This document shows positions 19,826 through 43,301 of a stretch of DNA of 51,866 nt, in pieces. The notes below the pieces were generated by a model. The model had not been told where the DNA came from, ran no database searches, and was given only the letters and a program-made list of their open reading frames with translations. The position numbers and the translations under genes are program-made. Each line of letters begins with the position of its first letter. Positions within the stretch are counted from its first letter, which is position 1. The stretch is from Proteromonas lacertae (Eukaryota), in assembly GCA_002245135.1 (NCBI GenBank), contig NGBS01001163.1, positions 310,001 to 361,866 of the forward strand. Reading direction: 5' to 3'.

Positions 19826-20584
19826 TTAATGAGTTATCCACATTGATACTACGCCATTATCATATTTGAAATCAAACCTATTCCATTTTTTAGGTATGTG
19901 ATTAATCGCATGTTTATATCTATTTCTTTCTGAGTTATCCAAAAGCAATATTCCTCCTTTTTTCTTTATTAATTCTATTGCTGTTATTATGCAACCAGCT
20001 CTAGCTCTTCCATCTCTACTTATTATATCATATTTTCTATTGTTTATTAATCTATTAGTAACATATGTTTTATAACATAACTTATTAAAACTAATATAAA
20101 TTGAATTATTATGACATACATCTATATTATCTTCTTTAATATAATGTATTTCAATTTTGTTATTTATTGAAAGCTTTTTCGTAATGTTTTTGACAGAATC
20201 TGACCATACCTTTGAATGTTCAACTGATATTAAATGCTTTATTCTATATGCTAACCATATTGTACTTGACCCAGAACTCCATTCTAATCCAATTGAATTG
20301 GAAGACAATATATGATCTAATATATAAATACATTCTCTAGATATCCATGGCTCACAATTGTTATCAATAGATATATATTTTTTCCTAAATGTACCTAATT
20401 TATCATCATCTTTACATAAATCGGTTGGTATTCTTTTATCTCTCATCATTTGTATATGTGTACTCTTTAATTTATTTACTCTTCGATCTATATTTTCATA
20501 ATCAATGTATATATATTATAAATATATTCGAGAGAATAGAATACAAACAATTATACATACACAAACAACAATAATATTAGTCAT
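19826..20584 (-). pseudogene. Class I SAM-dependent methyltransferase (glycan O-methyltransferase-like) with signal anchor; one in-frame TAA
   Basis: LEWSSGSSTIW, SVEH, DIISRDGRAR and GGILLLDNSER motifs. ATG 20584 and a hydrophobic anchor are in frame, with a stop at 20516-20518. Confidence 0.8.
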
Positions 20585-21744
20585 TTAAATTTATCATTTC
20601 CACAACATCTCCTTCTTTGTGGCAGAGTTGTTAATGGCATGTAGTTCAATAACCAGGTGATTAGCAGCTTTACTAAGTTGTCTTAATGAAGTGATGACCT
20701 TATCGATGAACTGAGATGTGAGGATGAAGTAGTTGTTATTATCCTACTGGATCTTGAGTTGATAATGAAACGTTAGTAAATACTCCTTCTCCATCTTATT
20801 GAAGTTGTTCGTATCGATGGATCTTGATTTAGTGATGTACCTTAGAATACTCCTTCTGAGTCTTCCTCCATTATCATCTTGACAAGATTTTTACGCAGTT
20901 GGGAGATTTGCACCATTGGAAGATAAAAGGGTTTTATTAAAAACTAATTCGATAGTAGAGGGATAAAATAAAGGATATGCTGCCTATGGGAAAGCTGTAA
21001 AAGCGCATAAGGAAAATGCTCACAAATATCAAGACTTTAGAGGCTTTTGCAGACAAATAACCAGAGCTAAATGCAAAGCTAAATAACCGTAGTGTTAGTA
21101 ACGGATGGATGGTTTCATACAAAAATTATACACTTTGGCAGTAACTGAAGTCTCAAATGAGAAATCAGAGACTATCTCAGTGTTGTGCGCCTTTTGTCAT
21201 AGTTGGCCATTTGTCTCCCAGACACTGTTAAAACAAACTAAATGTATATTCTTACTTGTCTTGATGAAAAATTGTTACTTTTATATTTATTGTGTTATAT
21301 GGCCTACCTCTGCATTATACTATTTTGTTAATATAAATAGTTTGAATATTTGCGCCGTTTGTCTTCTAGCAATTTTTGAAGCAAACTTAATGCATATTTA
21401 GCTAATACAGACTGAAATACATTAGCTGAAATGATTAGAATGTAATAATTATTAAATCTTTTTATATAAAAAAAGAAATGTAAAAAATAGGCTTGAATGA
21501 GGCTTGATTCTATATTTTCTTTTTCTATTTTTATATGAACAAAAAAATATACTGCAGAGGTAGGTCACATAACAAAGTAAGTATAAAGTAACAATTTTTC
21601 ATCAAGACAAGTAAGAATATACATTTAGTTTGTTTTAAAAGTGTCTGCTAAACAAACACCCTACTCTAACAAACGGCGCAGAACAAAACCAATTTATCTC
21701 CCAATCTTTACAACACTATAGTAAATAACATTTACAAAGTCAAT

Positions 21745-22522
21745 ATGAAGATTAATATGATTATAGCTACAGTTGTTTTCATTTTTTATTATTATAAAGA
21801 AATAGTTAATATGAAAAGATCAATAATACTAATAGCTGTAATTTCATGTAATAGATATATATATTTGAATAAGACATTATCTGCTTTTATGAAACATGTT
21901 TATAACTACGAAAAACATCTAACATACAATTTATTATTTATAGATCAAGGAACAATCGAAAGATATGATGTAGTTGATAGATATAAAATAAAAAATGCTG
22001 TATTTATGAATCCAGTAGGTTATCCTGCTTCATTTAATTATATTTTTTCTTATATAAATACAAAATATACATTATTCTTAGAAGAGGACTGGGAAGTAGT
22101 TGAAAAAATTTGAGAAAAGAATAATTCATCCTTCATTCATTAAAGAATCAATAAATATACTTGATAAAGTAGATAATGTGTATGGACTACTTTTAAGAAA
22201 TACAAGGGATATATCTGTGGGTTATTCCATAGTAGTTCATTCCAGTATGGGAATACATACTCTTTTTGTATTAAATCCACCTAAAAATAGAAACACATTC
22301 ACAAATGGTGCTAGTATTTATAGATCATCTGATTTGAAAGAGTTAAACTACTATATCAATGAATGTAATGCTTCTCAATTTTTTAGATACAATAATTACA
22401 AACTAGGTTTCACTTATAAAGGCTTATTATGTGGAAGAAATAGTACAAATTGTCAGTATGTTATGAAACATATTGGTTATAAAAGTACAAATAGTGGAAT
22501 TTGTAGAATTAGGTTATATTAA
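21745..22522 (+). pseudogene. GT-A fold (GT2-like) glycosyltransferase, frameshifted near 22110
   Basis: Signal anchor, then VISCNRYIYLNKTL, FIDQG, LFLEEDW and C-terminal HIG; split across two overlapping ORFs. Confidence 0.7.
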
Positions 22523-22633
22523 ATAATAATCTATTTTAGTTCTAAATTTCACTCTATAATATTCTTCTTTTTAGTTGTAATATAGGATTAAAATTATATT
22601 TTATGTTTATCAATTAATCAGTAAGTTTTAACT

Positions 22634-24385
22634 ATGAAATATAGAAGTGATATTCAAGGATTAAGGGGAATTGCAGTCATTTTAGTTTTGTTGTATCATG
22701 TTTATCCTACTATTTTTACTGGTGGTTTTATAGGTGTTGATATATTTTTTGTCTTATCAGGATATTTGATATGTATTTCAATTGAAAATAGAATAAAAAC
22801 CCAAAAAGGTAAATATTTTTCCTCATTTTATGCTGGAAGAATAAGAAGATTATTACCTTCATCGTTTGCAACTATATGCATTGTAACTCTATATGTTTAT
22901 TGGAATGATTGGGCATTCTTTTCTGTATATAAAATTGATGCTATTTCTTGTTTATTAGTCTATGCTAACTATCATTATTATTATAATAAAATAGATTACT
23001 TTTATTCTGGTTTAAAAGAGAGTCCACTTCTAAACTATTGGTCATTATCTATGGAAGAACAATTTTATTTAATAGCTCCTTTTTTTATATGGAATTTAAA
23101 TGATAATATAGTTGTATCTTACATATTAACTTCATTCATTTCATTTATTTTATGTATATACTATGGTTATGAAAATAGAATAAAGTGTTACTATTTTCTT
23201 TCCAGTCGTTGCTGGGAATTTTTATCTGGCTCTTTGATAAGACATTTTCAAACTAATATAACATTACAATCTGACATATCGATTGTAATAATAATAATAA
23301 TATCATTTTTATATAATAAAGAAATTATATATCCTACTTATAATGCTGTAATGCCTGTTATATTAACTATAATAAATCTAATTTCTTCGTATGCTAAATC
23401 CATATCTAATTGTTATATATTAAATTTGGTAGGCAATATGTCATATTCTATCTATCTAATACATTTTCCTTTAAAGGTATATTCGCATTCTTTATTACAT
23501 TACTTTATTAAAATGATAATATATGTTGTTATTTCATATAATTGTATTGAATTGCAGTTTTATAAAGGAATGTTTGTTGTATCTGATTGGTTGACTTATA
23601 TTATTTCTTTATTCACTTTATTAATTATGTTAAAATTGATAAAGTATTTAAATATTAATACTCAGATCAAATTAAAGAATATGAGACACTATTCTAGCTC
23701 AGAGTTGTTTAAAGATTTTAATAATATATTAAAGGATCATTGCCCTTTATTTAAATACAATAGAATATATAAATCATCAATTTTATTTATCGGAGATTCA
23801 CATATAGCTCAATATATCATTTCATTTTTATCTAGCGAAATGAAACATATATATCATATAGTACATTTAAATATACATAGATCTAGCTATAATGATATTT
23901 ATAAAAGCAAAATATTGCAAATAATTAATAAATATTACTTTAACTTATGTATTATGGGAAGTTTTATCGATAATAATAAATTAATTCATCAAATAACGAA
24001 TATAGCAGTGTTGATATTAAAAGTGTGTAAGATTGTGTTATTATGTAATGATAATCCAAATAATTCTATAGATCCAAATTCTTGTTTTAATAATAATAAA
24101 ACAGATTGTTATGGTATTATAAATTCTACATGTTTTATTCCTCAACAATTTTTGAAGCCTAATAGTTCTAGAATTGTGGTAGTAAAACTATGGGATGATA
24201 AAATAGTTTATAAATGTAAATGTAATTACTACTATAATCATAAACCAATATTTGCAGATCTACATCATTTAAGTGTTGAATATTTGAAACAATTATCAAA
24301 AAGAATACAAACAATCATATCTAAATATATTACTTCTGATATTGATTATATATATAACAAAACATGTAAAATATACATTCTCTAA
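22634..24385 (+). CDS. Acyltransferase-3 plus SGNH fusion (OafA/OatA-like O-acetyltransferase)
   Basis: RSDIQGLRGIAV..YH, GGFIGVDIFFVLSGYLI, RIRRLLP, WSLSMEEQFY and SYSIYLIHFP; the SGNH part has GDSH and DLHH. Confidence 0.93.
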   Translation: MKYRSDIQGLRGIAVILVLLYHVYPTIFTGGFIGVDIFFVLSGYLICISIENRIKTQKGKYFSSFYAGRIRRLLPSSFATICIVTLYVYWNDWAFFSVYKIDAISCLLVYANYHYYYNKIDYFYSGLKESPLLNYWSLSMEEQFYLIAPFFIWNLNDNIVVSYILTSFISFILCIYYGYENRIKCYYFLSSRCWEFLSGSLIRHFQTNITLQSDISIVIIIIISFLYNKEIIYPTYNAVMPVILTIINLISSYAKSISNCYILNLVGNMSYSIYLIHFPLKVYSHSLLHYFIKMIIYVVISYNCIELQFYKGMFVVSDWLTYIISLFTLLIMLKLIKYLNINTQIKLKNMRHYSSSELFKDFNNILKDHCPLFKYNRIYKSSILFIGDSHIAQYIISFLSSEMKHIYHIVHLNIHRSSYNDIYKSKILQIINKYYFNLCIMGSFIDNNKLIHQITNIAVLILKVCKIVLLCNDNPNNSIDPNSCFNNNKTDCYGIINSTCFIPQQFLKPNSSRIVVVKLWDDKIVYKCKCNYYYNHKPIFADLHHLSVEYLKQLSKRIQTIISKYITSDIDYIYNKTCKIYIL

Positions 24386-24445
24386 CTAATTATTTATTAT
24401 TTAATATGAAATGTTTTTAAACATATAGTTGTATTTAGTTTAATA

Positions 24446-25474
24446 ATGATTATTATTTACGTTTTAAACATAATATTATTCTTTCAGATTACTTGTTTTC
24501 TAGTTTATATAAATAGTAACATAGTCTATTCTTTAAAATATTTCAATTTTAATAATGCTACAAACATAAATGATTTTCGTAAGTGTTTAATTTTATCATT
24601 TGCTCTTCATTACAATTTTAGTAGTATGAAGAACTTTATATTATCCTTAAATAGGTCAAATTATAATGGAGATGTAATTCTTTTTACTTATAAAATATCA
24701 AGATATTTGGATGAATTGCTAAATAAATATAACATTCATTCAATACAACTTAACCTAACATATCCATTTTATCCATTTAATAATATTGAATATCCTATAT
24801 CAAAAATTAATATTTATAATAATTTGTACTTTTATAAAGGCAAATCGTTTGTAACATACAGATATTATTTATATAAATTATTTATTAAGTATTATGGTAA
24901 TAAATATAATTATATTCTCCTCACTGATATTAGAGATGTAATTTTTCAATTAAATCCATTTAAGTGGAATATTAAGCAAGGAATTTATCTAGTTGAAGAA
25001 CATCCAAGAAGAAAAATAAAATCTGACAAATCGAATTTGATATTTTTAAAACATTATAAACCAAATATATATCTTTATAATAGTACAATTATAAATGGTG
25101 GAGTATTATATGGTAGTTATCCAGAAATATATAATTTTCTGATTAATTTTTTATCATATATATGTCTATATAATTGTAATGGAAATGATCAAGGAGGAAT
25201 TAATTCTTACATTCGAAGTACTATGACTTTTCATTATCCTATTTTCCTTCTAAATTCAACTCACACTCCTGTAAAAACTTTAGCATTATGGCTATTTGAT
25301 TCACAAGCATGTTGCATTCCTTTTCATAATATTATATTTAATAAAGATATGAGTATTCCTCACATAATTCATCAGTATGACAGAGTAATAAAGGCAAGTA
25401 ATTCTAACATACATTATAAAGCATTATTTAAATCATACATATTATATTACTCAGAATATAATTTCAGCATGTAA
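24446..25474 (+). CDS. Putative GT-A glycosyltransferase (DxRDVxFQxxPF / HQYDR family)
   Basis: Signal anchor; LTDIRDVIFQLNPF, INGGV, NDQG and IIHQYDR. Paralog at 26352-27335. Confidence 0.72.
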   Translation: MIIIYVLNIILFFQITCFLVYINSNIVYSLKYFNFNNATNINDFRKCLILSFALHYNFSSMKNFILSLNRSNYNGDVILFTYKISRYLDELLNKYNIHSIQLNLTYPFYPFNNIEYPISKINIYNNLYFYKGKSFVTYRYYLYKLFIKYYGNKYNYILLTDIRDVIFQLNPFKWNIKQGIYLVEEHPRRKIKSDKSNLIFLKHYKPNIYLYNSTIINGGVLYGSYPEIYNFLINFLSYICLYNCNGNDQGGINSYIRSTMTFHYPIFLLNSTHTPVKTLALWLFDSQACCIPFHNIIFNKDMSIPHIIHQYDRVIKASNSNIHYKALFKSYILYYSEYNFSM

Positions 25475-25504
25475 TTTATTTTCCTTGACAATGTAGTAAA
25501 TACT

Positions 25505-26416
25505 TTAAAATTTTAAAGGATGATAGAATTTATTAAATCTATTTTTGCATTGCATTAGATTTATCCAATTCATTTCTGTCAATGATTTTCCAGCAGATAA
25601 TGGAGATCCAAGATACTTATTTGGAATAATTTCATAGGATAAGTTATAATAGAATATTAATTCAATAGTACTTGATTCTGTCTGAGAATGATAATTATGT
25701 TGTAAATCAAATATAATTTTGGATAAATACAATTTAGACCACCTTTGAATAAACTCCCTATTTACATATCCGTAATTATCATGAAATGTGTTTTTCCTTC
25801 GTTTTAAATAATTCTTTGTTGCACAATTATACCATACCCATTTAGGTGTAATTTTTCCCACACCTATAGTAATTAGATCCTTCATGTTCTTTTTGTATTT
25901 CTGTATAAATTCATATAAATTACCTATATATCCTACATCTTGTTCAATAATCCATATGTAATTAAACACTGTTTTTAGTTTTTTATGAAATGCAACTATT
26001 GATTCAGAATGAGAAATCCATGATAGTAATTTTGAAGATTTAAAAGTGCTACAATTTCCTTTCAAATATAAAATATGTGGATAAATAGATAATATTTCTT
26101 TGAATGACACAACAATATTTACTATATTAAATTTAGATAAGAATGACATATTTAATCTATTCATTGATAATAAAAAAAATGAATAATGATTTGGAAACAT
26201 TTTTCTCCATTCCTTATATCTTAACATCTGTTTAGTTGTGGGTGAAAAAATTCTAATAATTATACAATACTTATTACAGTTATATTTAGTTTGAAAATAA
26301 TTACATATCATAAATAAAAATGATAGAGTATATATTATAAAGAACACATATTTAAATTTTATAATCATTATATTTAAGTAAATAATTTGATAGTTTATCA
26401 TACCCAATTCTATCAT
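25505..26416 (-). CDS. DUF3405-like putative glycosyltransferase
   Basis: Signal anchor; WIIEQDVGYIG and terminal FYHPLKF. The true start is probably at MIIKFKY. Confidence 0.6.
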   Translation of the reverse strand: MIELGMINYQIIYLNIMIIKFKYVFFIIYTLSFLFMICNYFQTKYNCNKYCIIIRIFSPTTKQMLRYKEWRKMFPNHYSFFLLSMNRLNMSFLSKFNIVNIVVSFKEILSIYPHILYLKGNCSTFKSSKLLSWISHSESIVAFHKKLKTVFNYIWIIEQDVGYIGNLYEFIQKYKKNMKDLITIGVGKITPKWVWYNCATKNYLKRRKNTFHDNYGYVNREFIQRWSKLYLSKIIFDLQHNYHSQTESSTIELIFYYNLSYEIIPNKYLGSPLSAGKSLTEMNWINLMQCKNRFNKFYHPLKF

Positions 26417-27335
26417 ATTGATGAATAATTGACGGAATTGATTTATCTTTATTTATAAAGCAATTATTTTTAGGTGGATAGAATAATTCTATATTTCTTT
26501 TATCTACATATTCAACATGAAAATGTAATGCTAAACCATATCCATTTCTAAAAATATAGATTGGAATAGAATGAAAATAGTTATTATAAAAAAAGTAATT
26601 AAGTGTTCCTTGACTTGCAGTAATTGAATTATTTAAAAGTTTAATGTATAATTTATAAAAATTATATATTTCATATTTAGTACCAAATGTAATTCCTGAA
26701 TTGATTATAGGATTATTAGATATTTTTTTCCAATTTTTATACACGCTGATCCATTCTACCATTTTCTTTTGTTGTTTTATAGGATAATTTATAGCTTCTT
26801 CAAATAAATATACTCCTCTTTTTACATTAAAATCAAATGGGTTTGACTGAAAAATTACATCTCTGATATCAATTATTGCATAATAGTCATAACAATCTAT
26901 ATATTTATCCATCCATATTTTAATAATAAAGTGTCTATAAACTGTAAATTTAAAGCTATGATAGCTTATCATATTTGCTTTGATATCTGATATGTTAAAT
27001 ACGTAGTTACTATTACTTAACAGAAATGGATAAACATGTGTAATAAAAAGAAATGTAACATTAAGCTGTTTCATTACATTAGAATTAATTAATGTTGAAT
27101 TCTTTTCTACTAAAAGAATTATTGATCCTTTATATTTTGTTTTTATTAATGATGTCATAAAGTACTTTATTTTATTCCATCCATAATGATATGCTAAACT
27201 GAATATTACACACTTGCAGTTAATATTCTGTTTGACTCTTTCATATGAATATGAATTACAATTATATATTATCCCTTTTAAAATGATACAATAAATTAAG
27301 AGTATATAAAATATAATATATACTTTTTTATTCAT
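26352..27335 (-). CDS. Putative GT-A glycosyltransferase (DxRDVxFQxxPF / HQYDR family)
   Basis: Signal anchor; IIDIRDVIFQSNPF, INSGITFG, SQGTLN and IIHQYDR. Confidence 0.72.
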   Translation of the reverse strand: MNKKVYIIFYILLIYCIILKGIIYNCNSYSYERVKQNINCKCVIFSLAYHYGWNKIKYFMTSLIKTKYKGSIILLVEKNSTLINSNVMKQLNVTFLFITHVYPFLLSNSNYVFNISDIKANMISYHSFKFTVYRHFIIKIWMDKYIDCYDYYAIIDIRDVIFQSNPFDFNVKRGVYLFEEAINYPIKQQKKMVEWISVYKNWKKISNNPIINSGITFGTKYEIYNFYKLYIKLLNNSITASQGTLNYFFYNNYFHSIPIYIFRNGYGLALHFHVEYVDKRNIELFYPPKNNCFINKDKSIPSIIHQYDRIGYDKLSNYLLKYNDYKI

Positions 27336-27372
27336 TTAATACAACGATGCTGTTATTATGTTAAAGTCTTAT

Positions 27373-28710
27373 TCAATCACATAACTTATGAGACATGCTT
27401 ACTTCACAACCTAAATCATTTTTGTAATCTGAAGTAGCATTTAATACCACATCAACTATATAATATAAATTATAGCAAAAAGGAAAGTATATTAGTTTTT
27501 CTGCCCATATACCAATTCCATTATCTTTAGCCCAATCTCTTTCAACTAAAAATTTATTCATGAGAAATGGATTCTTTGTTGATAATAATTTAAATATTCT
27601 TCCTTCAATATTTAAATTACTAGTATGTTGTGGTTTATACTTAATCCAATTTCTTTGGATATCAATTGCTTTATTTATAAGGCTTTTAACTTCCTCAATA
27701 TTTATTCCATGTATTCTTTTATATGATGGATAATAGAGAGAAATAAAATGCATGGATCCTTCTTCAATATATTGTTCCATAAAAGATGGGCAACCTCTAT
27801 ATAAACCTCCTATATTAATTATGACTCCAGGATCTGATATAAATGGAAAATATAATAATCCTGTTCCAGGTCCAGATATATAAATGCTTGTGCAGCTTAA
27901 TACTTGTAATTGTTGTATGAAATCTTTATATTTTCTCCAATCAACATATACTATCTTTAATCGTTTATTATAAAATCTGATTATTGTGAAAAACATCTCT
28001 TTGTCTATTTTAGAAAACCTTTTATTATCAACTATTATTGCATATTTATTTTTGCATTCAGTAATATTATATACATAATACATTCTTTTTCTCATCCACC
28101 ATGTTGCTTTATATTCTTTACCTCCAGGTATTGAATAGTCTTTATTTGTACATCTTTGACATTGATGAGCCAATCCTACCACTAAAGTATTTATTAAATA
28201 CGATTTATTATACATATCAGTTTCATAAAGTAATTTATTCATAGAAAATTTTTCAAACACATTTGTTTGCCAATTATCTTTCCATTTATAATCGAACTTT
28301 GTTAATACTATATTAAAAGGATCCATTCTATAATTTAATTTTAGTAATGATAAATAAATCGAATATAAATCATCCCACAATAAGTGACCTATATTATTAG
28401 AATTAAATAACCCCATATATGTAGTAATACCTTTAATATTACAATTATACTTTATTGTACTTCTGATTAGTAAAGGCTTAAAACATATATTACTGCTTCT
28501 ACTTCTAATTGCTACACATTTTACTTTGTTTTCATTTACATTTAATAAAATCCATTTACCTTTTATATAATATATGTTCTTGTATATACATGTCCTATTA
28601 TAGTTTGATCCATAACATTTGACTGTGGAATTTATTTCTTGATTAATATTTATAATAACACAAAATGTTAATAAAATAATCAAAATGAAATAACACCTAG
28701 AAACAGTCAT
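27373..28710 (-). CDS. GT61-family glycosyltransferase
   Basis: Signal anchor; RTCIYKNIYY, NIGHLLWDDL and FIQQLQVLSCTSIYISGPGTGL. Confidence 0.75.
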   Translation of the reverse strand: MTVSRCYFILIILLTFCVIININQEINSTVKCYGSNYNRTCIYKNIYYIKGKWILLNVNENKVKCVAIRSRSSNICFKPLLIRSTIKYNCNIKGITTYMGLFNSNNIGHLLWDDLYSIYLSLLKLNYRMDPFNIVLTKFDYKWKDNWQTNVFEKFSMNKLLYETDMYNKSYLINTLVVGLAHQCQRCTNKDYSIPGGKEYKATWWMRKRMYYVYNITECKNKYAIIVDNKRFSKIDKEMFFTIIRFYNKRLKIVYVDWRKYKDFIQQLQVLSCTSIYISGPGTGLLYFPFISDPGVIINIGGLYRGCPSFMEQYIEEGSMHFISLYYPSYKRIHGINIEEVKSLINKAIDIQRNWIKYKPQHTSNLNIEGRIFKLLSTKNPFLMNKFLVERDWAKDNGIGIWAEKLIYFPFCYNLYYIVDVVLNATSDYKNDLGCEVSMSHKLCD

Positions 28711-28750
28711 AATCTTTTATGTTATAACAAAGAATATTAGATAATATAAA

Positions 28751-29701: not shown

Positions 29702-29717
29702 TTTTATATAGTAAAAA

Positions 29718-30648: not shown

Positions 30649-30654
30649 TTTATA

Positions 30655-32605: not shown

Positions 32606-32778
32606 AAAAATTAGTACAATTAAAATATCAACAAAATCTTAGTGAATTATTACAATTTATATTACAAAATGAGAAATAATTTACTGATGTAAATAATAGT
32701 AAAATAATATTACAAAACTTAATAAAAGTATTCAAATTTTCAAATGTTATTATCATTTTATAATATAATTTAATTGTA

Positions 32779-34417
32779 ATAAAATTTAGAAATGATATCC
32801 AAGAGGTTAGAGGAATTGCAGTTCTTTTTGTCTTTGTATATCATTTATTCCCAACAGCAGCTCCGGGTGGGTATATAGGAGTTGATATATTTTTTGTAAT
32901 ATCAGGATTCATAATTACTAGAACATTAATAAGTTCACAAAATAGAAGATATAAAATAATTTACTTTTACGCTAAAAGAATTAAAAGGTTAATTCCTTCA
33001 AGTTATATATGCCTTGTCTTCTACTATATTTACCATCCTACAATTAAAAAGCAGTCATTACATGAGACACAACATTATTATGATATAATATCAGCCATTC
33101 TATGTTACTCAAATATAAGATTTGATAAAGTTACTAAGAGCTATTTTCAAAGCCAATATAATTCAATAATTTTAAATTACTGGTCCTTATCTTTAGAAGA
33201 GCAATTTTATGCAATATACCCCATACTATTCTATTACTCTTATTTTCATTCTTTAATAATATCAATACTATTTCTATTAAGTTATGTAAATTGTATATTA
33301 AAGACATATAAAAATGATTGTTCTGCATATTATATGATATATAATAGATGTTGGGAATTATTATTAGGATGTATAACTGTCAAATTAACCTACATAATCC
33401 ACATAAACTCAATAATCATTTTATGTTGCATTATATTATCTTCGTATGTTATTGGAATTTATAACTTCTTAAAATTTCCTGGCTTTATTGCATTGCTACC
33501 TGATGTACTTACTTCCCTTATTATTCAAAATAGTTCTGTACTATTTAATAGTAATACATTAATTATGTTGGGAAATATTTCATATATTATTTACTTGTTT
33601 CATTATCCAATAATACAGAATAATCATAACTTTATCTTTATTATCATAAAGATTCTATTAGTTTCTGAAGTTATATATTTTTATTTAGAAGTTCCAATAA
33701 AGCATTCTAAACAAATCATATTTATTTGTATAATTAGCAGTGTTTTATCACTTGTGCTAATATTTAGTGTTTATATCTCAATCACGAAAAATATAAAATA
33801 TAATGATTTAATTATGTATAATGAGAATTACTATTGTAGTTTAAAATGTTATTGTTCAAATCAATTAATAGAATTTACAAAGTATTCAGTTCTGTTATTA
33901 GGTGATTCACATCTTTTTCAATACTTATCAATGATTAATACATTATTAAATAGATATAATATAGATAAAATTTTGATATTGCAATCGTTGATTATCAATA
34001 TTGAAAAGAATTATTTACAAATTACAAAATTATTCTTAAGTCTAAAACATATATTGTTGTGTATAATGTCTTATTATGTTGACTATAAGTTTCTATATAT
34101 CAATAAATATAAATTCGAAATAGCATTCGTATACATGATTAAACAAATTACTAGAATGGTGAATGGATTAGTGATAATGCAAGATAATCCACATAGAATA
34201 TGTGTATATAATACTACATGTAGACAATATTTACTACCTATAATATATCACAAAAAGATTACTTACATAACTATTTTTAACTTGTATTATAAAGGTTTAA
34301 ATACATGTATTGAAAATATATATTCTACAATTATTTTTCGGATATGCACCACTTAAATGAACAGTATATATGCAAATCAAGAATGATATACAAAATGCTT
34401 GAATTTGTAATTCATTA
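32779..34417 (+). pseudogene. Second AT3-SGNH O-acetyltransferase; ATA at the start position and a C-terminal frameshift
   Basis: One open frame from ATA 32779: (I)KFRNDIQEVRGIAV, GGYIGVDIFFVISG, WSLSLEEQFY, continuing into ORF 33334-34356 (GDSH). The DMHH motif is in a shifted frame near 34340. Confidence 0.88.
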
Positions 34418-34419
34418 AT

Positions 34420-34911
34420 TAATTTATCCTCTTCTTTTTTACCTAAACCAACTGTATATAGAGTAATATTATTTAACCATTGAGCATTATATATTAGAGA
34501 TTTTGTAAATATATGTAAATTATTAGGAATTGGTTCTATGGATATTGTTCTTATTCCATTATCCAACATACCAAATGAGCATATTCCTATGTTTGCTCCA
34601 GCGTCCATATAGTAGTCATCCTTATTTAACCCAAGTAATAGATACCACAATTTTCTTATTTTAGGACAATCATCCCAATCTCCATTTTGTTTTATTGAAT
34701 TTGAAATAACATCATTTTCATTTCTTACATAAATATAAAATTGTGATTTATTCCTACTAATTTTGACCAGTGATAATTTTTTATTACATTCAGGATATTT
34801 GATGTGTTTGCGGTCCCATACATACTGTTTAGTATTATGATAAGATATATAATTAGTATAATATATAGTAATGATAAATAAAATTAATATGATGATAAAC
34901 ACTTTGTTCAT
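34420..34911 (-). pseudogene. FkbM-family methyltransferase, 3'-truncated
   Basis: Signal anchor; DVISNSIKQNGDW, MDAGANIG, SIEPIPNN and VGLG. It lacks KIDVEG, and the ORF tail is antisense of the acyltransferase end. Confidence 0.8.
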
Positions 34912-36211: not shown

Positions 36212-36928
36212 ATGAAATACATTTTTATTTTTGTTATTCTTATATTCAATATATTAAATTACTATAATGCTATCAATATAGTTGTTGTTATAAGTTCTTG
36301 TACAAAAAATAATAGAACTAATTTAAATATATCTTTAATACCTTATAAGGTTATAATCCTAAGGTGTAACAAGACTACAAATGCAATTGATTCAAGAGAA
36401 GCTGGTTTGATGTTGGATTTTATAATAGAATCTTACACTGATAAACGAAGATTTAAATACATATTCGTTCATGACCATATTAAATCGTGGCACAATAAAA
36501 TAAATATATATGATAGGTTAAAATATTTAAAGAAAATTAATTATTTAGAAAAAGTCACTTTTAGTGGAATATTTTGCTTATATATAGCATTCGGAAGAAG
36601 TAAAAAGCTTCAAAAAATATTTAATCGCACTTATGAAATAGATAAATATATGAGAAATAATAGATTTACATATCTGACATTATATCAATTATATAAAAAT
36701 AAGTATTTCTTTCCCTGTTGTGCTACATTTGTTGTTGATACTACAAGAATAAAAAAACGACCTAAAATATTTTACATAAATTTAAGGAAAGGAATAAAAC
36801 ATTATGTTAATAATATAGGAAATAATGATTTATCAGCAGTTTATATGGAATATTTGTGGAGTATTATTTTTGGAATCAATAACATTCCTAGACCTCCAGA
36901 TTGTAAAACATCTGATTTATATTTTTAA
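36212..36928 (+). CDS. DUF3431-like protein (putative glycosyltransferase)
   Basis: REAG.MLDFII, IFVHDH..SWH, PCCATFVV...I..RP..FY and MEYLWSIIFG motifs. Confidence 0.78.
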   Translation: MKYIFIFVILIFNILNYYNAINIVVVISSCTKNNRTNLNISLIPYKVIILRCNKTTNAIDSREAGLMLDFIIESYTDKRRFKYIFVHDHIKSWHNKINIYDRLKYLKKINYLEKVTFSGIFCLYIAFGRSKKLQKIFNRTYEIDKYMRNNRFTYLTLYQLYKNKYFFPCCATFVVDTTRIKKRPKIFYINLRKGIKHYVNNIGNNDLSAVYMEYLWSIIFGINNIPRPPDCKTSDLYF

Positions 36929-36976
36929 TACTCAAAAGATTACATTTGTGATTAAATAATGATTAATGAAAGAGAA

Positions 36977-38000
36977 TTATATGTAATATGCATTTAATAA
37001 AATTTCAATAGGATACAATCCATGAATGAATAATTTATTTTTTAAAGCAGATAGATTATGCTTTGGTTTATAAGTAATTTCTGATATTTTAGATATATCT
37101 AAATATTGTAAATTACAATACTTCATAATAAATCCAACCAAAACATCCTCAATCCAAATTATATTATTTGTAGTAGTTATAAATGTATTTATGCAGTTTA
37201 CTGCAGATGATCTAAAGAGAAATCCTGGTCCAGAGGGGTAAGAAGGTACTTTCATATATAATAGTGATTTGTTTTCGCAGTTTACTGACCATCTGCTTTT
37301 AATGAAGCATTTCAATTTTGGATGCTTATTAATTGCCCCTATAACTGTTACGTTTTTATTACATTTGTTAATTAAGTCAAATACCATACTAATATTAAAG
37401 TATGTATCATCATCAAGCTTCATAAACCATTCATATTTGCAATGATTATATGTATATAAAGCAAGACATAATTAGTGAACAATTGTAATATGAATTATGT
37501 ACATTAAATGTAATAATGTCATTATATTTCTCAACTTCTTTTCTAAGTTTTCTATTAGTCCTTTCATTATATGAAAATCCAGTTATAAAAATATATTTAA
37601 TTTTCTTTATTCCAATAACTAATCTTCTCATAATCATTCTTTCATATAAAAATTCAGGTCTTGTGAGTATTCCTATTAATAATAATTCATTTGAACATTC
37701 AATTTTGTTATAAGAATAACAATAAAACAACATGTTCGATCCTATATAAGATTTGTGTGGTGTAACAGCTATTGTAGGTTTTTTATAATTAATTCTTTTC
37801 CTTCCGCAAGATAAATCTTCAAAATACTTTACACATTTTAAATATATGATAATATCTTTATCTATAGTAATATTTGTTTTTGTAAAATCATCAATATATG
37901 ATTTAATATCATTATTTATATAGTATAAATAATTAATAACAAATATAGTTATTCCAAATATTAATAAATTAATATTTTTAGCATGATATATATTTTGCAT
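36977..38000 (-). pseudogene. GT31 beta-1,3-galactosyltransferase-like; frameshift near 37450
   Basis: EVEKYNDII, WFMKLDDDTYFN, PSYPSGPGF and IEDVLVG motifs. Confidence 0.88.
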
Positions 38001-38029
38001 AAATTGATGTATTTGATTAGTTATAACTA

Positions 38030-38896
38030 ATGATAGTTAAAACTGTTAATATTTGTTTTTTAATCATAATAACTATATATATAACTTTGAATGTTAATTA
38101 TACATCATTTGATTGTCCTATGCTTTATAAAGTGTTTGTAACTGGATCATCATCTAACCATTTTCATTTATTAATACTGATGATATATAGATTATATATT
38201 GTTGAAAATAATATATGCTTAGTTATATGGAATTTAGGTCTATCAGCTAAACAGAAAAAAGAGTTATTAGCAGCTGAAAAATATGTTATACGAACAGGAA
38301 AATCTATAAAAATATTCAATTACTTATTTAATTATAGTAACTATCCTCCTCATTTTAACATAAATAAAAACAGTGGATATTACGCTTGGAAGCCTATTAT
38401 TATATACACAACCTATAAGATATTTAAAAAAAATATTCTATGGTTAGATGCAGGATGTTTTGTAAAAAATAAATTGGACTATGAATATAATGAGATTGTA
38501 AGAAATGAAGTTTGGTCAATTAGTTCAGGAACTACTATAAAGAGATATACTCATATTAATTTATTAAATTTATTAGATGTTAAAATAAATTTGTATAATA
38601 AAACCATGTGTGCAGGTGGAGTTATTGGATTGTATTATCCATCAACAACTGTTGATTATATAATGAACATGTGGTCATCATGTGCTTATATAAGGAAATG
38701 CATATCACCAAATGGTGCAAATCTTAAAAACCACAGAAATGATCAGAGTGTTATTTCTATACTACTATATCAAAATAATTTCAGCTGTGATAAAGTAAAA
38801 GGCATGAATTTTGATACTCATTTTGATTCTCATTATAAACAATACAACAACAAAAGATACCATGAATACATATCTATTATAGAAAAACTATCATAA
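38030..38896 (+). CDS. DUF1647-like putative glycosyltransferase
   Basis: FVTGSSSNHF, NLGLS, FNYSNYP, YAWKPII, WLDAG, CA...CISPNG and HRNDQS motifs. Confidence 0.8.
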   Translation: MIVKTVNICFLIIITIYITLNVNYTSFDCPMLYKVFVTGSSSNHFHLLILMIYRLYIVENNICLVIWNLGLSAKQKKELLAAEKYVIRTGKSIKIFNYLFNYSNYPPHFNINKNSGYYAWKPIIIYTTYKIFKKNILWLDAGCFVKNKLDYEYNEIVRNEVWSISSGTTIKRYTHINLLNLLDVKINLYNKTMCAGGVIGLYYPSTTVDYIMNMWSSCAYIRKCISPNGANLKNHRNDQSVISILLYQNNFSCDKVKGMNFDTHFDSHYKQYNNKRYHEYISIIEKLS

Positions 38897-38927
38897 TTAT
38901 ATGTTTTTAAAATCTAATAAATTTAAA

Positions 38928-39949
38928 TTACAGTTTAATATTTCTATTGACATAGTTACAGATTTTACAATAGCTGAATGAGTATTTATAATTGAATCTA
39001 TTAAACCATTCTTGTGATATATTTCTATGCCAAATCAGATGAGGTTCAAGCAATGTAGGTTGTACAATCAATTTATTAATATAATTAGTCAAATTTTTTA
39101 ATGTTTCAAATTTGTTAAAATTAATAATAGCTAGAGGATGTGGAAGAAATTTATCAATTGTCTTTGGTCCGAAATATATCGGAATACAACCTGCCAACAA
39201 ACAATCAGTTAGTTTCTCAGTTACATAATCATTATTTATATCAGGAGCTTCGAATTTACTACCTTTTTTCCATGTTATAACAGAATTTTCTATAGCTATA
39301 CAGAATTTATATTGTTTTAGAAGTTGTATTTTATTTTTCTAGAAATTGATTTAGGCCACTTTTTGTTATTTAAGTCATTACCATAAGAATCTATAGATAA
39401 GTATTTCATAAGTTTTTGAACAACATATTGTCTATTGTAATAGTGAACTTTTTGGATATACACTATATCTTTTCGTTTTAAAAAATCATTTAAACTTCTA
39501 AAATTTTCTTTTGATCTTCTAATAAAATCTATAAAGTCAAAGGTTGAATATATTGGATAGGATAAATGCCACTTATTGTTAAATAATCTGTAATCCACTG
39601 CTAAATGATAATACTTATTAATGCCATTTCCTATATCTTTCATAAAATTTACTTGGCTTAATTTTTCTGTTGTCATAACAATGTTATATGAATTATTATT
39701 CTTTATAGGAAATATTCTATTGCCATTGTATATTATAGCATCATATATTTTGTTTGTATAATTTATAAAATTGCATGTGTATGTAGCAGACAGTGATTTG
39801 CAAATTATTGATTTTTCAGGAAGTTTATAGTAGTTCTTAAATGAATTTCCAATTAAAATATTAATATAATTAGAAATTCTATTATTATAAAATCTTTGGA
39901 TCATCATAATCATTATGATAAAAAGGAATATAGTGTTTATCATTATCAT
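38928..39949 (-). pseudogene. GT10 alpha-1,3/4-fucosyltransferase; frameshift near 39330
   Basis: IDSYG, then in a shifted frame YKFCIAIENS...DYVTEKL...AGCIPIYFG, the GT10 alpha-1,3 motif. Confidence 0.92.
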
Positions 39950-40078
39950 TTAAAATTATTGATATATTATATAATGTTTAATTAGTTAATAATTGAATGC
40001 TTTATAAATATTATATATAAAAATATAAAATAGAGAGATATTGAGTAAAGAATAAAGTAAATAGAATCTATTTGATTT

Positions 40079-40921
40079 TTACATGTTTTTATTACAATGA
40101 GAGTATATATAACTCATATTTCTATTACTTATTCCATGTACTGCTAAATATATCATGAAATCTTTACAATTGTTAAATCTATTCTTCCTTTTATAATAAC
40201 GATTTATTCTTTTTATTTTAATTCTATAGTCTTTTAAATATAATCCAAGTTGAATATCTTCTCGATAGATTAAATATCTACTAGATAAATTCATAGTGCT
40301 TATAAAACTATTCCATCTTTTAAATTTAGGAAATATGTAGAAACTCCCAGCAACAAATTCTGGCAATGTAATATATGTATAAATTGTATTTGGTATATAA
40401 TTGGAATGATTTCTATTTCTGTTTGTTATCATTTCTGGATAATAATAACCATATATTATTAGTTTAAATTCTGTATATAAGTTAATAAAAAGAATAATTA
40501 ATTGGAGATTTGGATATACATCGCTATCTACTTTAATAATAAAATCAAAATAATTACTTATTGTTTTTGTCCAATTGTATATTAACATTGTTGAAATGGT
40601 TAAATTAAAATAGCTATCTATAAATGAAAATTCAATTATATCACCTTCTTTATGGTTATAATGAATGGAGCTCAATCCTGTATAAAATATTACTCTGATG
40701 TTTAATCTATTGTTGTATATTCCCCATGTATTTCTTATTATCATTCTTTTAATTAGATTACTACTACATATAGGAACAAGTATTAAAACTTTGTAAAAAT
40801 TTTTAACTTCAATATTTTCAATTATACTAAAATATGATGGTTGCAATACAATAAATTGTTGACTGATATTTTTAGAATAACCTTGACAATGCATATCATT
40901 AAATAAAATATAACATATCAT
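40079..40921 (-). CDS. GT31 beta-1,3-galactosyltransferase-like
   Basis: RMIIRNTWG, GDIIEFSFIDSYFNLT, IKVDSDVY, PEFVAGSFY and EDIQLG motifs. Confidence 0.88.
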   Translation of the reverse strand: MICYILFNDMHCQGYSKNISQQFIVLQPSYFSIIENIEVKNFYKVLILVPICSSNLIKRMIIRNTWGIYNNRLNIRVIFYTGLSSIHYNHKEGDIIEFSFIDSYFNLTISTMLIYNWTKTISNYFDFIIKVDSDVYPNLQLIILFINLYTEFKLIIYGYYYPEMITNRNRNHSNYIPNTIYTYITLPEFVAGSFYIFPKFKRWNSFISTMNLSSRYLIYREDIQLGLYLKDYRIKIKRINRYYKRKNRFNNCKDFMIYLAVHGISNRNMSYIYSHCNKNM

Positions 40922-40997
40922 ATATAGAAATATGCATAAATCAATACAATGATAATAATAATATTTAAGTATTTTAAAGAGATATTATTATTAATAA

Positions 40998-41804
40998 TTA
41001 TATTATACAATTAAAATCTTTTATATAAAAACCTAATGGTTTTTTAAAAATAGCTACTTTATATCCTTTAACAACTATTCTGGAAATAAAATCTAAATCT
41101 TCAGTTGAATGAAGTGACTCATTAAATTTTATGAATTTCATTATGCTTCTTTTTAATGAAGGCCAACCATTTGTTATAAAGAATCTATTAGATACATCAC
41201 ATTTATATATTCTATTATCAAATGAAAATGTATTTCTGCATCTCTCTTTAATTTCATTATATTGATTTGTCACAGCATATTTGCTGTACAATCCTGATAA
41301 ATTGTACCTATCTAATTGATTATAATATCTAGTTGATGGATGGAACATTATATCTATATTTCTGTTTTCATAAAATAGTTTGAGTATAATGTAAATTCTA
41401 TATACTGACATAGTATCATCAACATCAAAAAATGATATGATTGAACAATGAGAATTAACAAACCCAACATTCCTGTTTGAAGCTGCATTGTGTTTATTTT
41501 TTCTATATACAATAATTAATTCATTTGTACATTTTTTTAATTTTTCTGATTTATATAATATTTTGTCAAAAGTTCTGAATGAAATGCCTGAGATCACAAG
41601 AACTATTTCATGAGGTTTTACTACTGACCTACATACACTTCTTACTAGATTATAATAGCATCTGTTGTAATCTTCATATGTTGAAGGAATTATCAAAGAC
41701 AAACAAAAAGGATAATCAGTTGTAATTTGTTTAATATATACTTTATTAAATAAATAATTAATTAATAATAAAAATAAAATATAAAATGTATTTTTAATAA
41801 TTAT
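40998..41804 (-). CDS. GT2-family glycosyltransferase (no ATG at the anchor; ATA at 41804)
   Basis: SLIIPS, EIVLV, AASNRNVG, ISFFDVDD and EDLDF. The frame stays open upstream through a TM segment. Confidence 0.82.
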   Translation of the reverse strand: MIIKNTFYILFLLLINYLFNKVYIKQITTDYPFCLSLIIPSTYEDYNRCYYNLVRSVCRSVVKPHEIVLVISGISFRTFDKILYKSEKLKKCTNELIIVYRKNKHNAASNRNVGFVNSHCSIISFFDVDDTMSVYRIYIILKLFYENRNIDIMFHPSTRYYNQLDRYNLSGLYSKYAVTNQYNEIKERCRNTFSFDNRIYKCDVSNRFFITNGWPSLKRSIMKFIKFNESLHSTEDLDFISRIVVKGYKVAIFKKPLGFYIKDFNCII

Positions 41805-42009
41805 AATAATGTAGCTTCTATAAAACTAATAATAATGTCAAAAAATTATTGAATAGTATCAAACAACACTAAATTTATATCACTATGCTTAATTTATTTT
41901 CATATCTCTTGATTTTAATTCTTGGTATTAAACTCATATAATCCATAATATAGCAATATATAACTAATGCTTTTAAGATATTTTATTAACTAAGTCACGA
42001 AGAAAATAA

Positions 42010-42148
42010 AAAAGGAATAATAATAGCTGGTAATAGGAATCTAACCACTAATGATAGTATTTCAATAGTTGGATAATAATTCAATTAGTAATTTTACTTC
42101 GTCAAATGCAACTCAGCATAGAATAACAATTCAGTCAGCGCTATTACT
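42010..42148 (-). ncRNA. Second Pol III B-box-like small-RNA candidate
   Basis: cattagtggttagattccta matches 8814-8833 at 19/20. Terminal stem taatagc(g)ctg / cagctatta, followed by a T run. Confidence 0.3.
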
Positions 42149-42224
42149 TAATGATTAATATTAGAAGTAATGTTACATATACTTAATGACAATTGGATCA
42201 TCATTTTATATTTAAATAATATAT

Positions 42225-43301
42225 ATGGTGATTTTAGTTCTGCAAATATTTGTTATTCTTTTGTTATATATGATTGTAAACATAAGTAATAATTATTTAT
42301 TAATAATAATACCATCAGATGTATACTATTTACATATGATAAGAAACTTTTACATATCTAACATACAAAAATATAATTTATCTAATAAATTTAGAGTAGT
42401 TGCATATACTTATGAGATGTTTTTAAAATGTAAAGAATATGGAGTTCCTGTTGAAAAGATGGATAAACAAATAGAAGAAGATAATAATTCTTACAAAATT
42501 TCTTCATTTAATTTCATTAGAAAAACTAGATTAAAACATCCAATAATTCTTAAATACTTAAAACGCTATAAGTTCATATTATTTTTAGATGCAGATGTAT
42601 TCTTTTTTGTTAATCCATTAAGATTATTAGAATTATTTAACAATCAAACCGATATAATGATGCCATGCGATGATTCAGGTTGTTCTGTACTTAATTATGG
42701 TTTTCTTTTAATTAAAAGATCGAAAAAAACAATAAAATATATAAAGCAATTGATATTAATAGAAAAGAGATGCAAATCATATCAATGGAAAGATGGAGAA
42801 CAAGGTATAGCCAATAGATATATGAAAAAAATATCATATTTAAGATTTCAAAAAATCAAAATTAACATATTTATGGATGGATTTAATTTCTTCAATTTAT
42901 ATTCGTTTGATATTAAAAATATATCATCTAATTTAATTGGATTTCATAATGATTTTACTATAGGTATTGACTCAAAAATGTATAGACTTAAGGAATTAGG
43001 GCTATATTTTTTAAATGATGAACTTATGAAGAGGGAAAGAATGTATTTATACTATAATGGAACTACAAGCCTAAACATTGTTCATACTATGAAAATATTA
43101 TCAAATCTCATATATATATGTAAAATAGCAAATAGAATACTTGCATTACCAAAATTTGAATGTAATAAATCAAGAAAATGTACATTTGTGGAGTTATTCA
43201 ATATTGAATTTTTTAACAAATGCAAAATTGAATATATAGAAAATATATCTTTTATTACTATTCTGTCAAATATTCTTATAGAATTCTTAATCTATTCATA
43301 A
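42225..43301 (+). CDS. GT77 / nucleotide-diphospho-sugar transferase family
   Basis: Signal anchor; ILFLDADVFFFVNP, LNYGF, EQG..N and FHND..G...K..RLKE.GL motifs. Confidence 0.85.
   Translation: MVILVLQIFVILLLYMIVNISNNYLLIIIPSDVYYLHMIRNFYISNIQKYNLSNKFRVVAYTYEMFLKCKEYGVPVEKMDKQIEEDNNSYKISSFNFIRKTRLKHPIILKYLKRYKFILFLDADVFFFVNPLRLLELFNNQTDIMMPCDDSGCSVLNYGFLLIKRSKKTIKYIKQLILIEKRCKSYQWKDGEQGIANRYMKKISYLRFQKIKINIFMDGFNFFNLYSFDIKNISSNLIGFHNDFTIGIDSKMYRLKELGLYFLNDELMKRERMYLYYNGTTSLNIVHTMKILSNLIYICKIANRILALPKFECNKSRKCTFVELFNIEFFNKCKIEYIENISFITILSNILIEFLIYS

What the first reader, a model, noticed from the sequence alone, without database searches (positions are those of the whole stretch)
19826..43301. 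An O-antigen-cluster-like eukaryotic glycan biosynthesis island of about 20 intronless genes
Seen: every recognisable gene across ~23.5 kb builds or decorates glycans: 5 GT31, GT10 fucosyltransferase, GT61, GT77, 2 GT2-like, DUF1647, DUF3431, DUF3405-like, 2 DxRD/HQYDR proteins, 2 AT3-SGNH acetyltransferases and 3 methyltransferases. Nearly all GTs and MTases start with a hydrophobic type II signal anchor. I found no introns in them, whereas the host genes at 1-5.7 kb are spliced. Known: eukaryotic Golgi GTs are normally dispersed, while multi-family clusters with acetyl/methyl decorators are typical of bacterial O-antigen/capsule loci and giant-virus glycosylation clusters. Inference: this is a cassette specifying a fucosylated, O-acetylated, O-methylated surface-coat glycan (a protist 'serotype' locus, possibly for host mimicry or virus-receptor switching). 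No nucleotide-sugar synthesis or transport genes were seen, so it would depend on host Golgi supply.
Basis: partly seen in the sequence, partly recalled or inferred. Interest (0 to 1): 0.92.

Follow-up and report, generated by a model that had tools for sequence, protein, structure and literature searches.

The report
Virus-dense Golgi sugar-coat gene cluster
A single-celled eukaryote, likely a gut flagellate related to Blastocystis, carries 20 sugar-building and sugar-decorating genes packed almost without gaps or introns between two virus-like mobile elements; they likely build a surface sugar coat, but 11 of the 20 are broken in this sequence and variation between strains is untested.

Summary
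The cluster is real. Twenty glycan genes lie at 19826-43301; 12 pass Pfam's curated cut-offs, and the rest rest on weaker profile, structure or homolog evidence. Sixteen of 19 intergenic gaps are 150 nt or less. All 18 non-AT3 proteins begin with a hydrophobic segment. Eight intact genes (8.6 kb) have no intron where host density predicts about 27. Paralogs are old (23-31% identical), so this is not a recent tandem array. First, 11 of 20 genes carry 16 lesions, including the only fucosyltransferase, all three methyltransferases and four of five GT31s. Some may be sequencing errors: GT10 keeps 76 of 76 invariant residues. Second, the cluster sits in mobile DNA, between two Polinton-like elements and two 278-nt direct repeats. 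Close relatives (58-71%) are intact, AT-rich, unnamed proteins; prokaryotic or viral ones found are 29% identical or less over the domain and lack anchors. The family mix matches published counts for Proteromonas, not Blastocystis. Best reading: a native Golgi glycan cassette, probably one of several, in a fast-evolving compartment. Serotype switching, mimicry and mobility are untested. No reads or genome were available.

The parts
19826..20584 (-). Class I methyltransferase-like gene with N-terminal anchor; in-frame stop near 20517, or a 57-nt intron at about 20488-20544; lies outside the dense core
   Evidence: PDB 3cvo E=0.002; no Pfam hit
21745..22522 (+). GT2-like a; frameshift near 22105 in an A run
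   Evidence: PF00535 E=0.014, below cut-off
22634..24385 (+). AT3-SGNH O-acyltransferase a, intact, 583 aa, with GDS and DxxH motifs
   Evidence: PF01757 E=3e-20; PF19040 E=0.0014
24446..25474 (+). DxRD/HQYDR GT-A protein a, intact; own ortholog P0142
   Evidence: 31% to copy b; tree support 0.999
25505..26368 (-). Anchored protein, weakly DUF3405-like, intact; its start overlaps the stop of the next gene
   Evidence: PF11885 E=0.008, below cut-off
26352..27335 (-). DxRD/HQYDR GT-A protein b, intact; ortholog P0133 at 67%
   Evidence: model pLDDT 93.7; GT-A matches Z 14-16
27373..28710 (-). GT61-like, intact, 445 aa
   Evidence: 7 homologs at 35-65%, one with PF04577; EOGT E=0.004
28751..29707 (-). 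GT31 a; no ATG ahead of the anchor
   Evidence: PF01762 E=1.6e-12
29718..30648 (+). GT31 b; frameshift near 29832
   Evidence: PF01762 E=1.6e-20
30722..31566 (+). FkbM-like methyltransferase a; no ATG, two frameshifts (near 30920 and 31380) and an in-frame stop (near 31147)
   Evidence: PF05050 E=1.4e-8; TIGR01444 on two pieces
31567..32629 (-). GT31 c; no ATG ahead of the anchor; frameshift near 32221
   Evidence: PF01762 E=1e-15
32779..34414 (+). AT3-SGNH b; ATA where paralog a has ATG; frameshift near 34315, ahead of the DxxH motif
   Evidence: PF01757 E=4e-16; DNA repeat D4
34297..34911 (-). FkbM-like methyltransferase b; homology ends near 34425 and the C-terminal half is missing
   Evidence: TIGR01444 model positions 2-62 of 143, E=6e-5
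36212..36928 (+). DUF3431 protein, intact
   Evidence: PF11913 E=3.6e-18
36977..38000 (-). GT31 d; frameshift near 37460
   Evidence: PF01762 on both pieces
38030..38896 (+). DUF1647-like protein, intact; ATG 29 nt from the ATG of GT31 d
   Evidence: PF07801 E=5e-4, below cut-off
38928..39949 (-). GT10 fucosyltransferase-like; single frameshift near 39335 in an A run, otherwise fully conserved
   Evidence: PF00852 E=4.7e-18
40079..40984 (-). GT31 e; open frame, start and anchor uncertain (first ATG 40921)
   Evidence: PF01762 E=1.8e-19
40998..41810 (-). GT2-like b; no ATG ahead of the anchor
   Evidence: PF00535 E=1.5e-5
42225..43301 (+). GT77 nucleotide-diphospho-sugar transferase, open frame
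   Evidence: PF03407 E=1.2e-13
14519..14796 (+). Direct repeat a (left bracket); abuts the right inverted repeat of the left element
   Evidence: 95% to repeat b over 278 nt
44133..44476 (+). Direct repeat b (right bracket); shares terminal and internal motifs with the MITE-like element
21181..21685 (.). 505-nt element with long terminal inverted repeats (MITE-like), between the first gene and the core
   Evidence: inverted arms I1 and I3
6696..14514 (.). Left Polinton-like element (context): inverted repeats, integrase-like ORF 7228-8514, protease 9594-10445; no polymerase; capsid and ATPase labels are recalled, not verified
   Evidence: capsid fold prediction failed
44922..51352 (.). Right Polinton-like element (context): intact protein-primed PolB 44922-48884 and an integrase in three pieces at 50264-51352
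   Evidence: PF03175 E=3e-21; weak rve hits

Best explanation
Twenty glycosyl-, acetyl- and methyltransferase-type genes are packed at virus-like density between mobile elements, and they likely form a native cassette of a Proteromonas-like gut protist whose predicted Golgi enzymes would build and decorate a cell-surface glycan from host-supplied donors. Shown: the gene content, density, lack of introns in the intact genes, N-terminal hydrophobic segments, old paralogs, flanking elements and lesions. Inferred from family knowledge: GT31s lay beta-1,3 links; GT61, GT77, GT2 and the unassigned GT-A enzymes extend or branch the chain; GT10 adds fucose; AT3-SGNH carries acetyl groups across the membrane; luminal SAM enzymes O-methylate sugars. 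Inferred from published family counts: the genome holds several such cassettes. This copy is likely partly decayed (about 0.75 that some lesions are real), although many single-base shifts may be consensus errors (about 0.5).
For: Family calls. 88.5% coding over 21745-43301 and 16 of 19 gaps of 150 nt or less. Island GC3 is 0.14-0.20, inside the host range of 0.06-0.27. Closest relatives are AT-rich and mostly anchored: 18 of 19 GT10 hits at 58-71% on contigs up to 12.8 kb, and 17 of the top 20 HQYDR hits anchored against 0 of 10 distant ones. Each HQYDR copy has its own ortholog. Published InterPro counts: GT10 25, FkbM 70, AT3 6, DUF3431 7, DUF1647 3, GT31 59 and viral PolB 172 in P. lacertae; the first five are 0 in all 8 Blastocystis. 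That species also has 8 nucleotide-sugar transporters and 2 fucokinases. Host-zone GC is 26.8%; P. lacertae is listed at 27.0%. For real decay: a half-gene truncation, a paralog-aligned lost ATG, 4 lesions in one gene, and a lesion-free 6-kb block (P=0.02).
Against: No donor, acceptor, product or transcript was measured. Clustering in relatives could not be seen because no context for the close homologs was retrievable. Host identity is indirect; the top named hits of mitochondrial L3 are oomycetes and plants at about 52%. The link to spliced host genes crosses repeats where misjoins occur. For errors rather than decay: GT10 has 0 changes at 76 invariant sites, all five GT31s keep DxD and xED/xDD motifs, overdispersion of lesions is weak (P=0.09), and zero lesions in host CDS has P=0.10. 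The overlaps and 10-29 nt head-to-head spacing are not explained by a host origin.
Confidence: 0.55

Rival explanations
1. The 29.4-kb segment between the two direct repeats is itself a mobile glycan cassette, an integrated circle or composite transposon, exchanged between strains with or beside Polinton-like viruses and switching the coat type.
For: 278-nt direct repeats, 95% identical, bracket the segment and each abuts a Polinton-like element. Genes are intronless and compact. GT10 relatives form a star-like radiation at a median 58% identity, with the window copy in no supported subclade.
Against: The repeats share motifs with a MITE-like element inside the segment, so they may be independent copies of a common repeat. 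No intact transposase or recombinase lies inside; the 16621-17688 ORF has no significant family hit. No empty site could be examined.
Confidence: 0.17
2. The island is a relic of the glycosylation region of a large DNA virus that integrated into the host genome.
For: AT-rich, intronless, overlapping genes. Giant viruses have glycogene clusters of up to 33 genes with methyl- and acetyltransferases (PMC10117803, passages). L085 is a viral cluster holding a GT10. Polinton-like neighbours often accompany giant viruses (recalled).
Against: No giant-virus core gene or nucleotide-sugar enzyme among the ORFs scanned. Viral relatives are 22-30% identical over the domain, and 6 of 6 examined lack an N-terminal anchor (KD 1.22 or less), whereas 18 of 18 island proteins have one.
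Confidence: 0.13
3. The island is DNA of another organism, or of another locus, joined to this contig at a repeat by misassembly.
For: Both edges are repeats or Polinton-like elements. Island GC is 22.2% against 26.8% in the host zone. The island is richer in lesions than the host genes. No reads were available.
Against: GC3 matches the host. The families are eukaryote-type with Golgi anchors. No relative was confirmed in prokaryote genomes for GT10 or AT3-a. Even if misjoined, the cluster itself would remain a real eukaryotic-type cluster.
Confidence: 0.08
4. An ordinary local expansion of Golgi glycosyltransferases by tandem duplication or retrocopying, with no joint function.
For: Five GT31s and three gene pairs; a transposon-rich zone tolerates insertions; many copies are broken.
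Against: At least ten unrelated families; paralogs only 23-31% identical; no unrelated gene is interspersed over 21.5 kb; in Blastocystis ST1 the 23 tagged GT31/61/77/2/8 genes are at least 22 locus tags apart.
Confidence: 0.07

Closest known systems
Bacterial O-antigen / capsule loci (features recalled)
   Same: Many GT families clustered with OafA-type AT3-SGNH acetyltransferases and FkbM-type methyltransferases; tight packing and overlaps; low GC
   Different: Eukaryote-type Golgi families with type II anchors; both strands used; no nucleotide-sugar synthesis, Wzx/Wzy/Wzz or ABC export genes; strain variation not shown
Giant-virus glycogene clusters (Megavirinae; PMC10117803, passages)
   Same: Intronless mixed-strand clusters of 6-33 genes with GTs, sugar methyltransferases and acetyltransferases; clade-specific content
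   Different: Those carry nucleotide-sugar pathways and the viral relatives examined here are soluble; this one has anchored enzymes, no sugar pathway and lies in a spliced nuclear context
Fungal galactosaminogalactan cluster (PMC4817252, PMC8224951; search listing only)
   Same: A eukaryotic nuclear gene cluster for a surface polysaccharide, with a decorating enzyme
   Different: Five genes around one synthase, against 20 genes from at least ten families of Golgi-type transferases
Blastocystis GT31/GT49/GT61/GT77 expansions (PMC5608401 supplement; mimicry idea seen via review PMC7477959)
   Same: Related lineage; expanded GT31, GT61 and GT77; a surface coat that contains fucose
   Different: Locus tags are scattered in ST1; GT10, FkbM, AT3, DUF3431 and DUF1647 are absent from all 8 annotated Blastocystis

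Membership tests
Bacterial O-antigen/capsule locus | Several GT families clustered with acetyl/methyl decorators | tested here: met
Bacterial O-antigen/capsule locus | Nucleotide-sugar synthesis and Wzx/Wzy or ABC export genes in the locus | tested here: not met
   none among island ORFs in Pfam or NCBIfam
Bacterial O-antigen/capsule locus | Co-oriented operon | tested here: not met
   10 genes on + and 10 on -, with divergent and convergent pairs
Bacterial O-antigen/capsule locus | Content swapped between strains at a conserved site | not testable with these tools
   no genome or reads
Giant-virus glycogene cluster | Viral core genes in the surrounding DNA | tested here: not met
   only Polinton-type genes flank it
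Giant-virus glycogene cluster | Soluble GTs with their own nucleotide-sugar pathway | tested here: not met
   18 of 18 island proteins anchored; 6 of 6 viral relatives not
GT31 (PF01762) | Pfam score above cut-off; DxD and xED/xDD motifs | tested here: met
   5 of 5 genes; 4 of 5 disrupted
GT10 (PF00852) | C-terminal fucosyltransferase domain above cut-off | tested here: met
   65.9 bits against 23.9; gene frameshifted
GT10 (PF00852) | GDP-fucose transfer activity | not testable with these tools
   needs an assay
GT61 (PF04577) | Pfam domain above cut-off | tested here: inconclusive
   no hit on the window protein; homolog P0003 annotated; EOGT E=0.004
AT3-SGNH O-acetyltransferase | AT3 membrane domain fused to SGNH with GDS and DxxH | tested here: met
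   copy a: AT3 above cut-off, SGNH E=0.0014 below cut-off, motifs visible; in copy b the DxxH motif is out of frame
GT-A fold (HQYDR proteins) | GT-A fold with DxD-like motif and C-terminal His | tested here: met
   Z 14-16 to GT6, GT8 and GT24-type chains; D156, D159, H305 invariant in 96 sequences; no CAZy family assigned
DUF3405 / DUF1647 | Pfam score above cut-off | tested here: inconclusive
   15 against 25 bits and 20 against 25.7 bits
Composite transposon or integrated circle | Direct repeats at both ends | tested here: met
   278 nt, 95%
Composite transposon or integrated circle | Own mobility enzyme, target duplication or empty site | tested here: inconclusive
   no family hit for 16621-17688; empty site not testable
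Polinton-like element (flanks) | pPolB, integrase, protease, inverted repeats | tested here: met
   split over two elements: pPolB right; protease and repeats left; integrases only weakly scored
Polinton-like element (flanks) | Double jelly-roll capsid protein | tested here: inconclusive
   single-sequence model pLDDT 30; no useful PDB or viral-contig hit

The most novel reading that the evidence does not exclude
Opalinatan gut protists carry a set of exchangeable serotype cassettes: 20-30 kb intronless blocks of Golgi transferases that are gained, swapped and retired through repeats and Polinton-like elements. This would be a eukaryotic counterpart of O-antigen loci, and this copy would be one in the course of being switched off.
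Probability: 0.2. Interest if true: 0.88.

Novelty: new variant of a known kind. Interest (0 to 1): 0.64.

Why it matters
Eukaryotic Golgi glycans are normally specified by dispersed, spliced genes, so glycan structure cannot be read from a locus. A 20-gene block of anchored transferases would let one link a locus to a coat structure in a gut protist and assign donors to unassigned GT-A families (HQYDR, DUF3431, DUF1647). It would also make testable whether protist coats vary by cassette exchange. It suggests that the large GT10, FkbM and GT31 counts published for Proteromonas reflect clusters that the Blastocystis lineage lacks. If the block proves fixed and merely decayed, it is still an unusual genome architecture, but of narrower interest.

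Tried and rejected
No whole genome is held. None of 10 window proteins is in the protein collection by exact match. Context of close homologs: the metagenome scan gave a phage with a 28% GT61 relative and one spurious hit; viral scans gave only distant relatives or none; prokaryote-genome scans confirmed none for GT10 or AT3-a (motif-limited). Hidden introns as the cause of the breaks: 6 of 10 breaks have no host-like candidate, and GT10 homologs run straight through the break; only the 19826 gene has a plausible one. Alternative genetic code or polyadenylation-made stops: host genes translate cleanly with standard stops and TGTTTGTT occurs only 7 times. Phase variation at homopolymers: rejected, since the runs are 3-7 nt and runs of 5 or more occur 5-10 times per kb throughout. 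Blastocystis as host was my first reading and was lowered. The capsid fold prediction was unusable. No Rfam or tRNA hit. The HQYDR profile found no PDB sequence relative. Six look-ups in earlier findings returned nothing that bears on this.
Full report
Layout. The window has four zones. Bases 1-5.7 kb hold spliced host genes: an HSA-domain protein, mitochondrial L3 and a lysine methyltransferase. They have 9 GT-AG introns in about 2.9 kb of CDS (26-53 nt, one of 220 nt) and translate without stops. Bases 6.0-14.5 kb are a Polinton-like element with inverted repeats at 6696-6856 and 14362-14514, an integrase-like ORF and a protease, but no polymerase. Bases 14.5-44.5 kb are bracketed by 278-nt direct repeats at 95% identity and hold a repeat-rich zone followed by the glycan genes. 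From 44.5 kb comes a second element with an intact protein-primed PolB (PF03175, E=3e-21) and an integrase in three pieces. The labels capsid, ATPase and MULE-like for other ORFs are recalled and were not confirmed.

The observation. I built 20 gene models. Twelve pass Pfam cut-offs; eight rest on weaker evidence, listed in the observation check. HQYD_b, modelled on a 96-sequence alignment, is a confident GT-A fold. Its best matches are tied among GT6, GT8, GT24 and LH3-type enzymes (Z 14-16, rmsd 3.3-3.9, 206-246 aligned), so no family can be assigned. The core 21745-43301 is 88.5% coding, 16 of 19 gaps are 150 nt or less, two pairs overlap, and two head-to-head pairs have starts 10 and 29 nt apart. 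All 18 non-AT3 models have an N-terminal hydrophobic window. Eight intact genes (8,628 nt) contain no frame-breaking intron where host density predicts 27. None of 27 host intron-by-phase cases would have been invisible, and the chance of zero is 5e-5 even at the lower bound of density. Paralogs are old: GT31s 23-30%, HQYDR pair 31%, AT3 pair 31%.

Eleven of 20 genes carry 16 lesions: 8 frameshifts, 2 in-frame stops, 5 missing ATGs and 1 truncation. They hit the only GT10, all three methyltransferases, four of five GT31s, both GT2-likes and AT3-b. Host-like introns cannot rescue 6 of 10 breaks tested; the other four have one to three candidates each, of which only the 57-nt one in the 19826 gene looks plausible. 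For GT10, four of four homologs aligned run straight through the break. Evidence for real decay: half of FkbM-b is gone, AT3-b has ATA where its paralog has ATG, FkbM-a has four lesions, and five consecutive genes over 6 kb are clean (P=0.02). Evidence for consensus error or very recent damage: most shifts lie in short A/T runs or TA repeats, GT10 has 0 changes at 76 invariant sites where homologs have 0-4, and all GT31s keep their catalytic motifs. Overdispersion is weak (P=0.09), clean host CDS has P=0.10, and the flanking elements are also frameshifted. Bellas et al. report that many stops in such regions are assembly artefacts (PMC10120064, passages). Without reads I cannot separate the two.

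Relatives. Close homologs are Logan-only and unnamed. GT61 has 7 hits at 35-65%. The HQYDR search gave 426 hits, with a 67% ortholog of copy b and a separate ortholog of copy a. GT10 has 19 hits, 18 of them at 58-71%, on contigs up to 12,823 nt. They are uninterrupted ORFs with the same AT-driven composition. The anchored HQYDR relatives are separated from soluble ones by a branch with support 1.0 (47 of the hits treed). Viral relatives are 22-30% identical over the domain, and the 6 examined lack anchors; L085 is a viral glycogene cluster with sugar-pathway enzymes. Motif scans of prokaryote genomes confirmed no relative of GT10 or AT3-a. The Atlas places HQYDR look-alikes in parabasalids, amoebozoans and phages. 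Gene neighbourhoods of the close homologs could not be fetched.

Host. Short introns and stramenopile-leaning L3 hits first suggested Blastocystis. Published InterPro counts point elsewhere (PMC10690189 supplementary file 7, rows seen). GT10, FkbM, AT3, DUF3431, DUF1647 and AT3-fused SGNH are 0 in all 8 Blastocystis but 25, 70, 6, 7, 3 and 1 in Proteromonas lacertae. That species also has 59 GT31, 172 viral-type PolB domains, 8 nucleotide-sugar transporters, 2 fucokinases and no GDP-fucose synthase. Its listed GC is 27.0% (PMC12129017, passages) against 26.8% in the host zone. A Proteromonas-like opalinatan is therefore likely; this is a taxon-level inference. The counts would fit roughly three to seven cassettes of this make-up, and fucose would have to come from salvage. 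In Blastocystis ST1, 23 tagged GT31/61/77/2/8 genes are at least 22 tags apart (PMC5608401 supplement 28, read whole), assuming that tags follow gene order.

Mechanism. Shown: content, density, anchors, lack of introns, age of paralogs, flanks and lesions. Inferred from family knowledge: type II Golgi enzymes extend a glycan on surface proteins or lipids using host nucleotide sugars; AT3-SGNH acetylates and SAM enzymes methylate it. Inferred: linkage keeps a matched enzyme set together in a repeat-rich compartment where copies are gained and lost. As sequenced, this copy could at most add GT61, GT77, HQYDR, DUF3431, DUF1647, one GT31 and one acetylation step. The direct repeats allow a mobile-cassette reading, but they share motifs with a MITE-like element at 21181-21685 and may be independent repeat copies.

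Comparison and novelty. It works like an O-antigen or giant-virus glycogene cluster but is a member of neither: it lacks sugar pathways, export genes, operon polarity and viral core genes. Eukaryotic polysaccharide clusters are known, such as the five-gene fungal GAG cluster (listing only). Nine literature searches listed no description of a multi-family Golgi transferase cluster in a protist; most subscription papers are not covered, and Eme et al. 2017 was not held (seen only through review PMC7477959, passages). Other papers seen: PMC10690189 (abstract, passages, section 10), PMC5608401 (passages, section 21, supplement 1 part 1 of 4), and passages of PMC3129679, PMC10117803, PMC13620141 and 10.1101/2024.03.23.586382.

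Verdict. A real and unusual architecture, rated a new variant of a known kind.

Noticed in passing
window 6084-6141 and 6315-6984: A palindrome and two ORFs lie left of the matched inverted repeat; the right-hand copy of the 6315-6746 ORF is cut off exactly where direct repeat a begins (14515-14519), suggesting a deletion that fused the two elements.
   Followed up: partly
window 44535-44629 and 44800-44850: Tandem 32-nt palindromic repeats and a very GC-rich patch just beyond the 3' end of the PolB gene, possibly an element terminus or origin.
   Followed up: no
window 9379-10789 and 50264-51352: Protease, putative ATPase and second integrase of the Polinton-like elements are broken, whereas the 3.96-kb PolB, the first integrase and the 12778 ORF are intact.
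   Followed up: partly
window 16621-17688: Intronless 343-aa ORF with a C..C..HxH pattern recalled from MULE/FAR1 DNA-binding domains; no significant family hit.
   Followed up: partly
window 29707, 30722, 32779, 41804: Four genes have ATA at the expected start; non-AUG initiation is an alternative to start loss. Only 32779 is fixed by a paralog.
   Followed up: partly
window 34912-36211 and 43291-44070: A 1.3-kb gap without recognisable ORFs, and short anchor-like frames after GT77, may be remnants of further genes.
   Followed up: partly
window 1282-1351, 5699-5768, 14203-14272, 44852-44921: Two of three host genes checked, and three element genes, have a T-rich TTTTGT or TGTTGT tract within 70 nt after the stop, like the Blastocystis downstream element; island genes show it inconsistently.
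   Followed up: no
L003 8530-11245: A phage-like contig carries three adjacent glycosyltransferase-like genes, one a 28% relative of the island's GT61.
   Followed up: no
L085 887-12860: AT-rich viral contig with a tight co-oriented glycogene cluster: epimerase, UDP-glucose dehydrogenase, GT2, GT10, Stealth and GT25.
   Followed up: partly
window 16493-16504: Two TTAGGG-type units (gggttagggttagggt) in the repeat zone, possibly an interstitial telomeric remnant.
   Followed up: no
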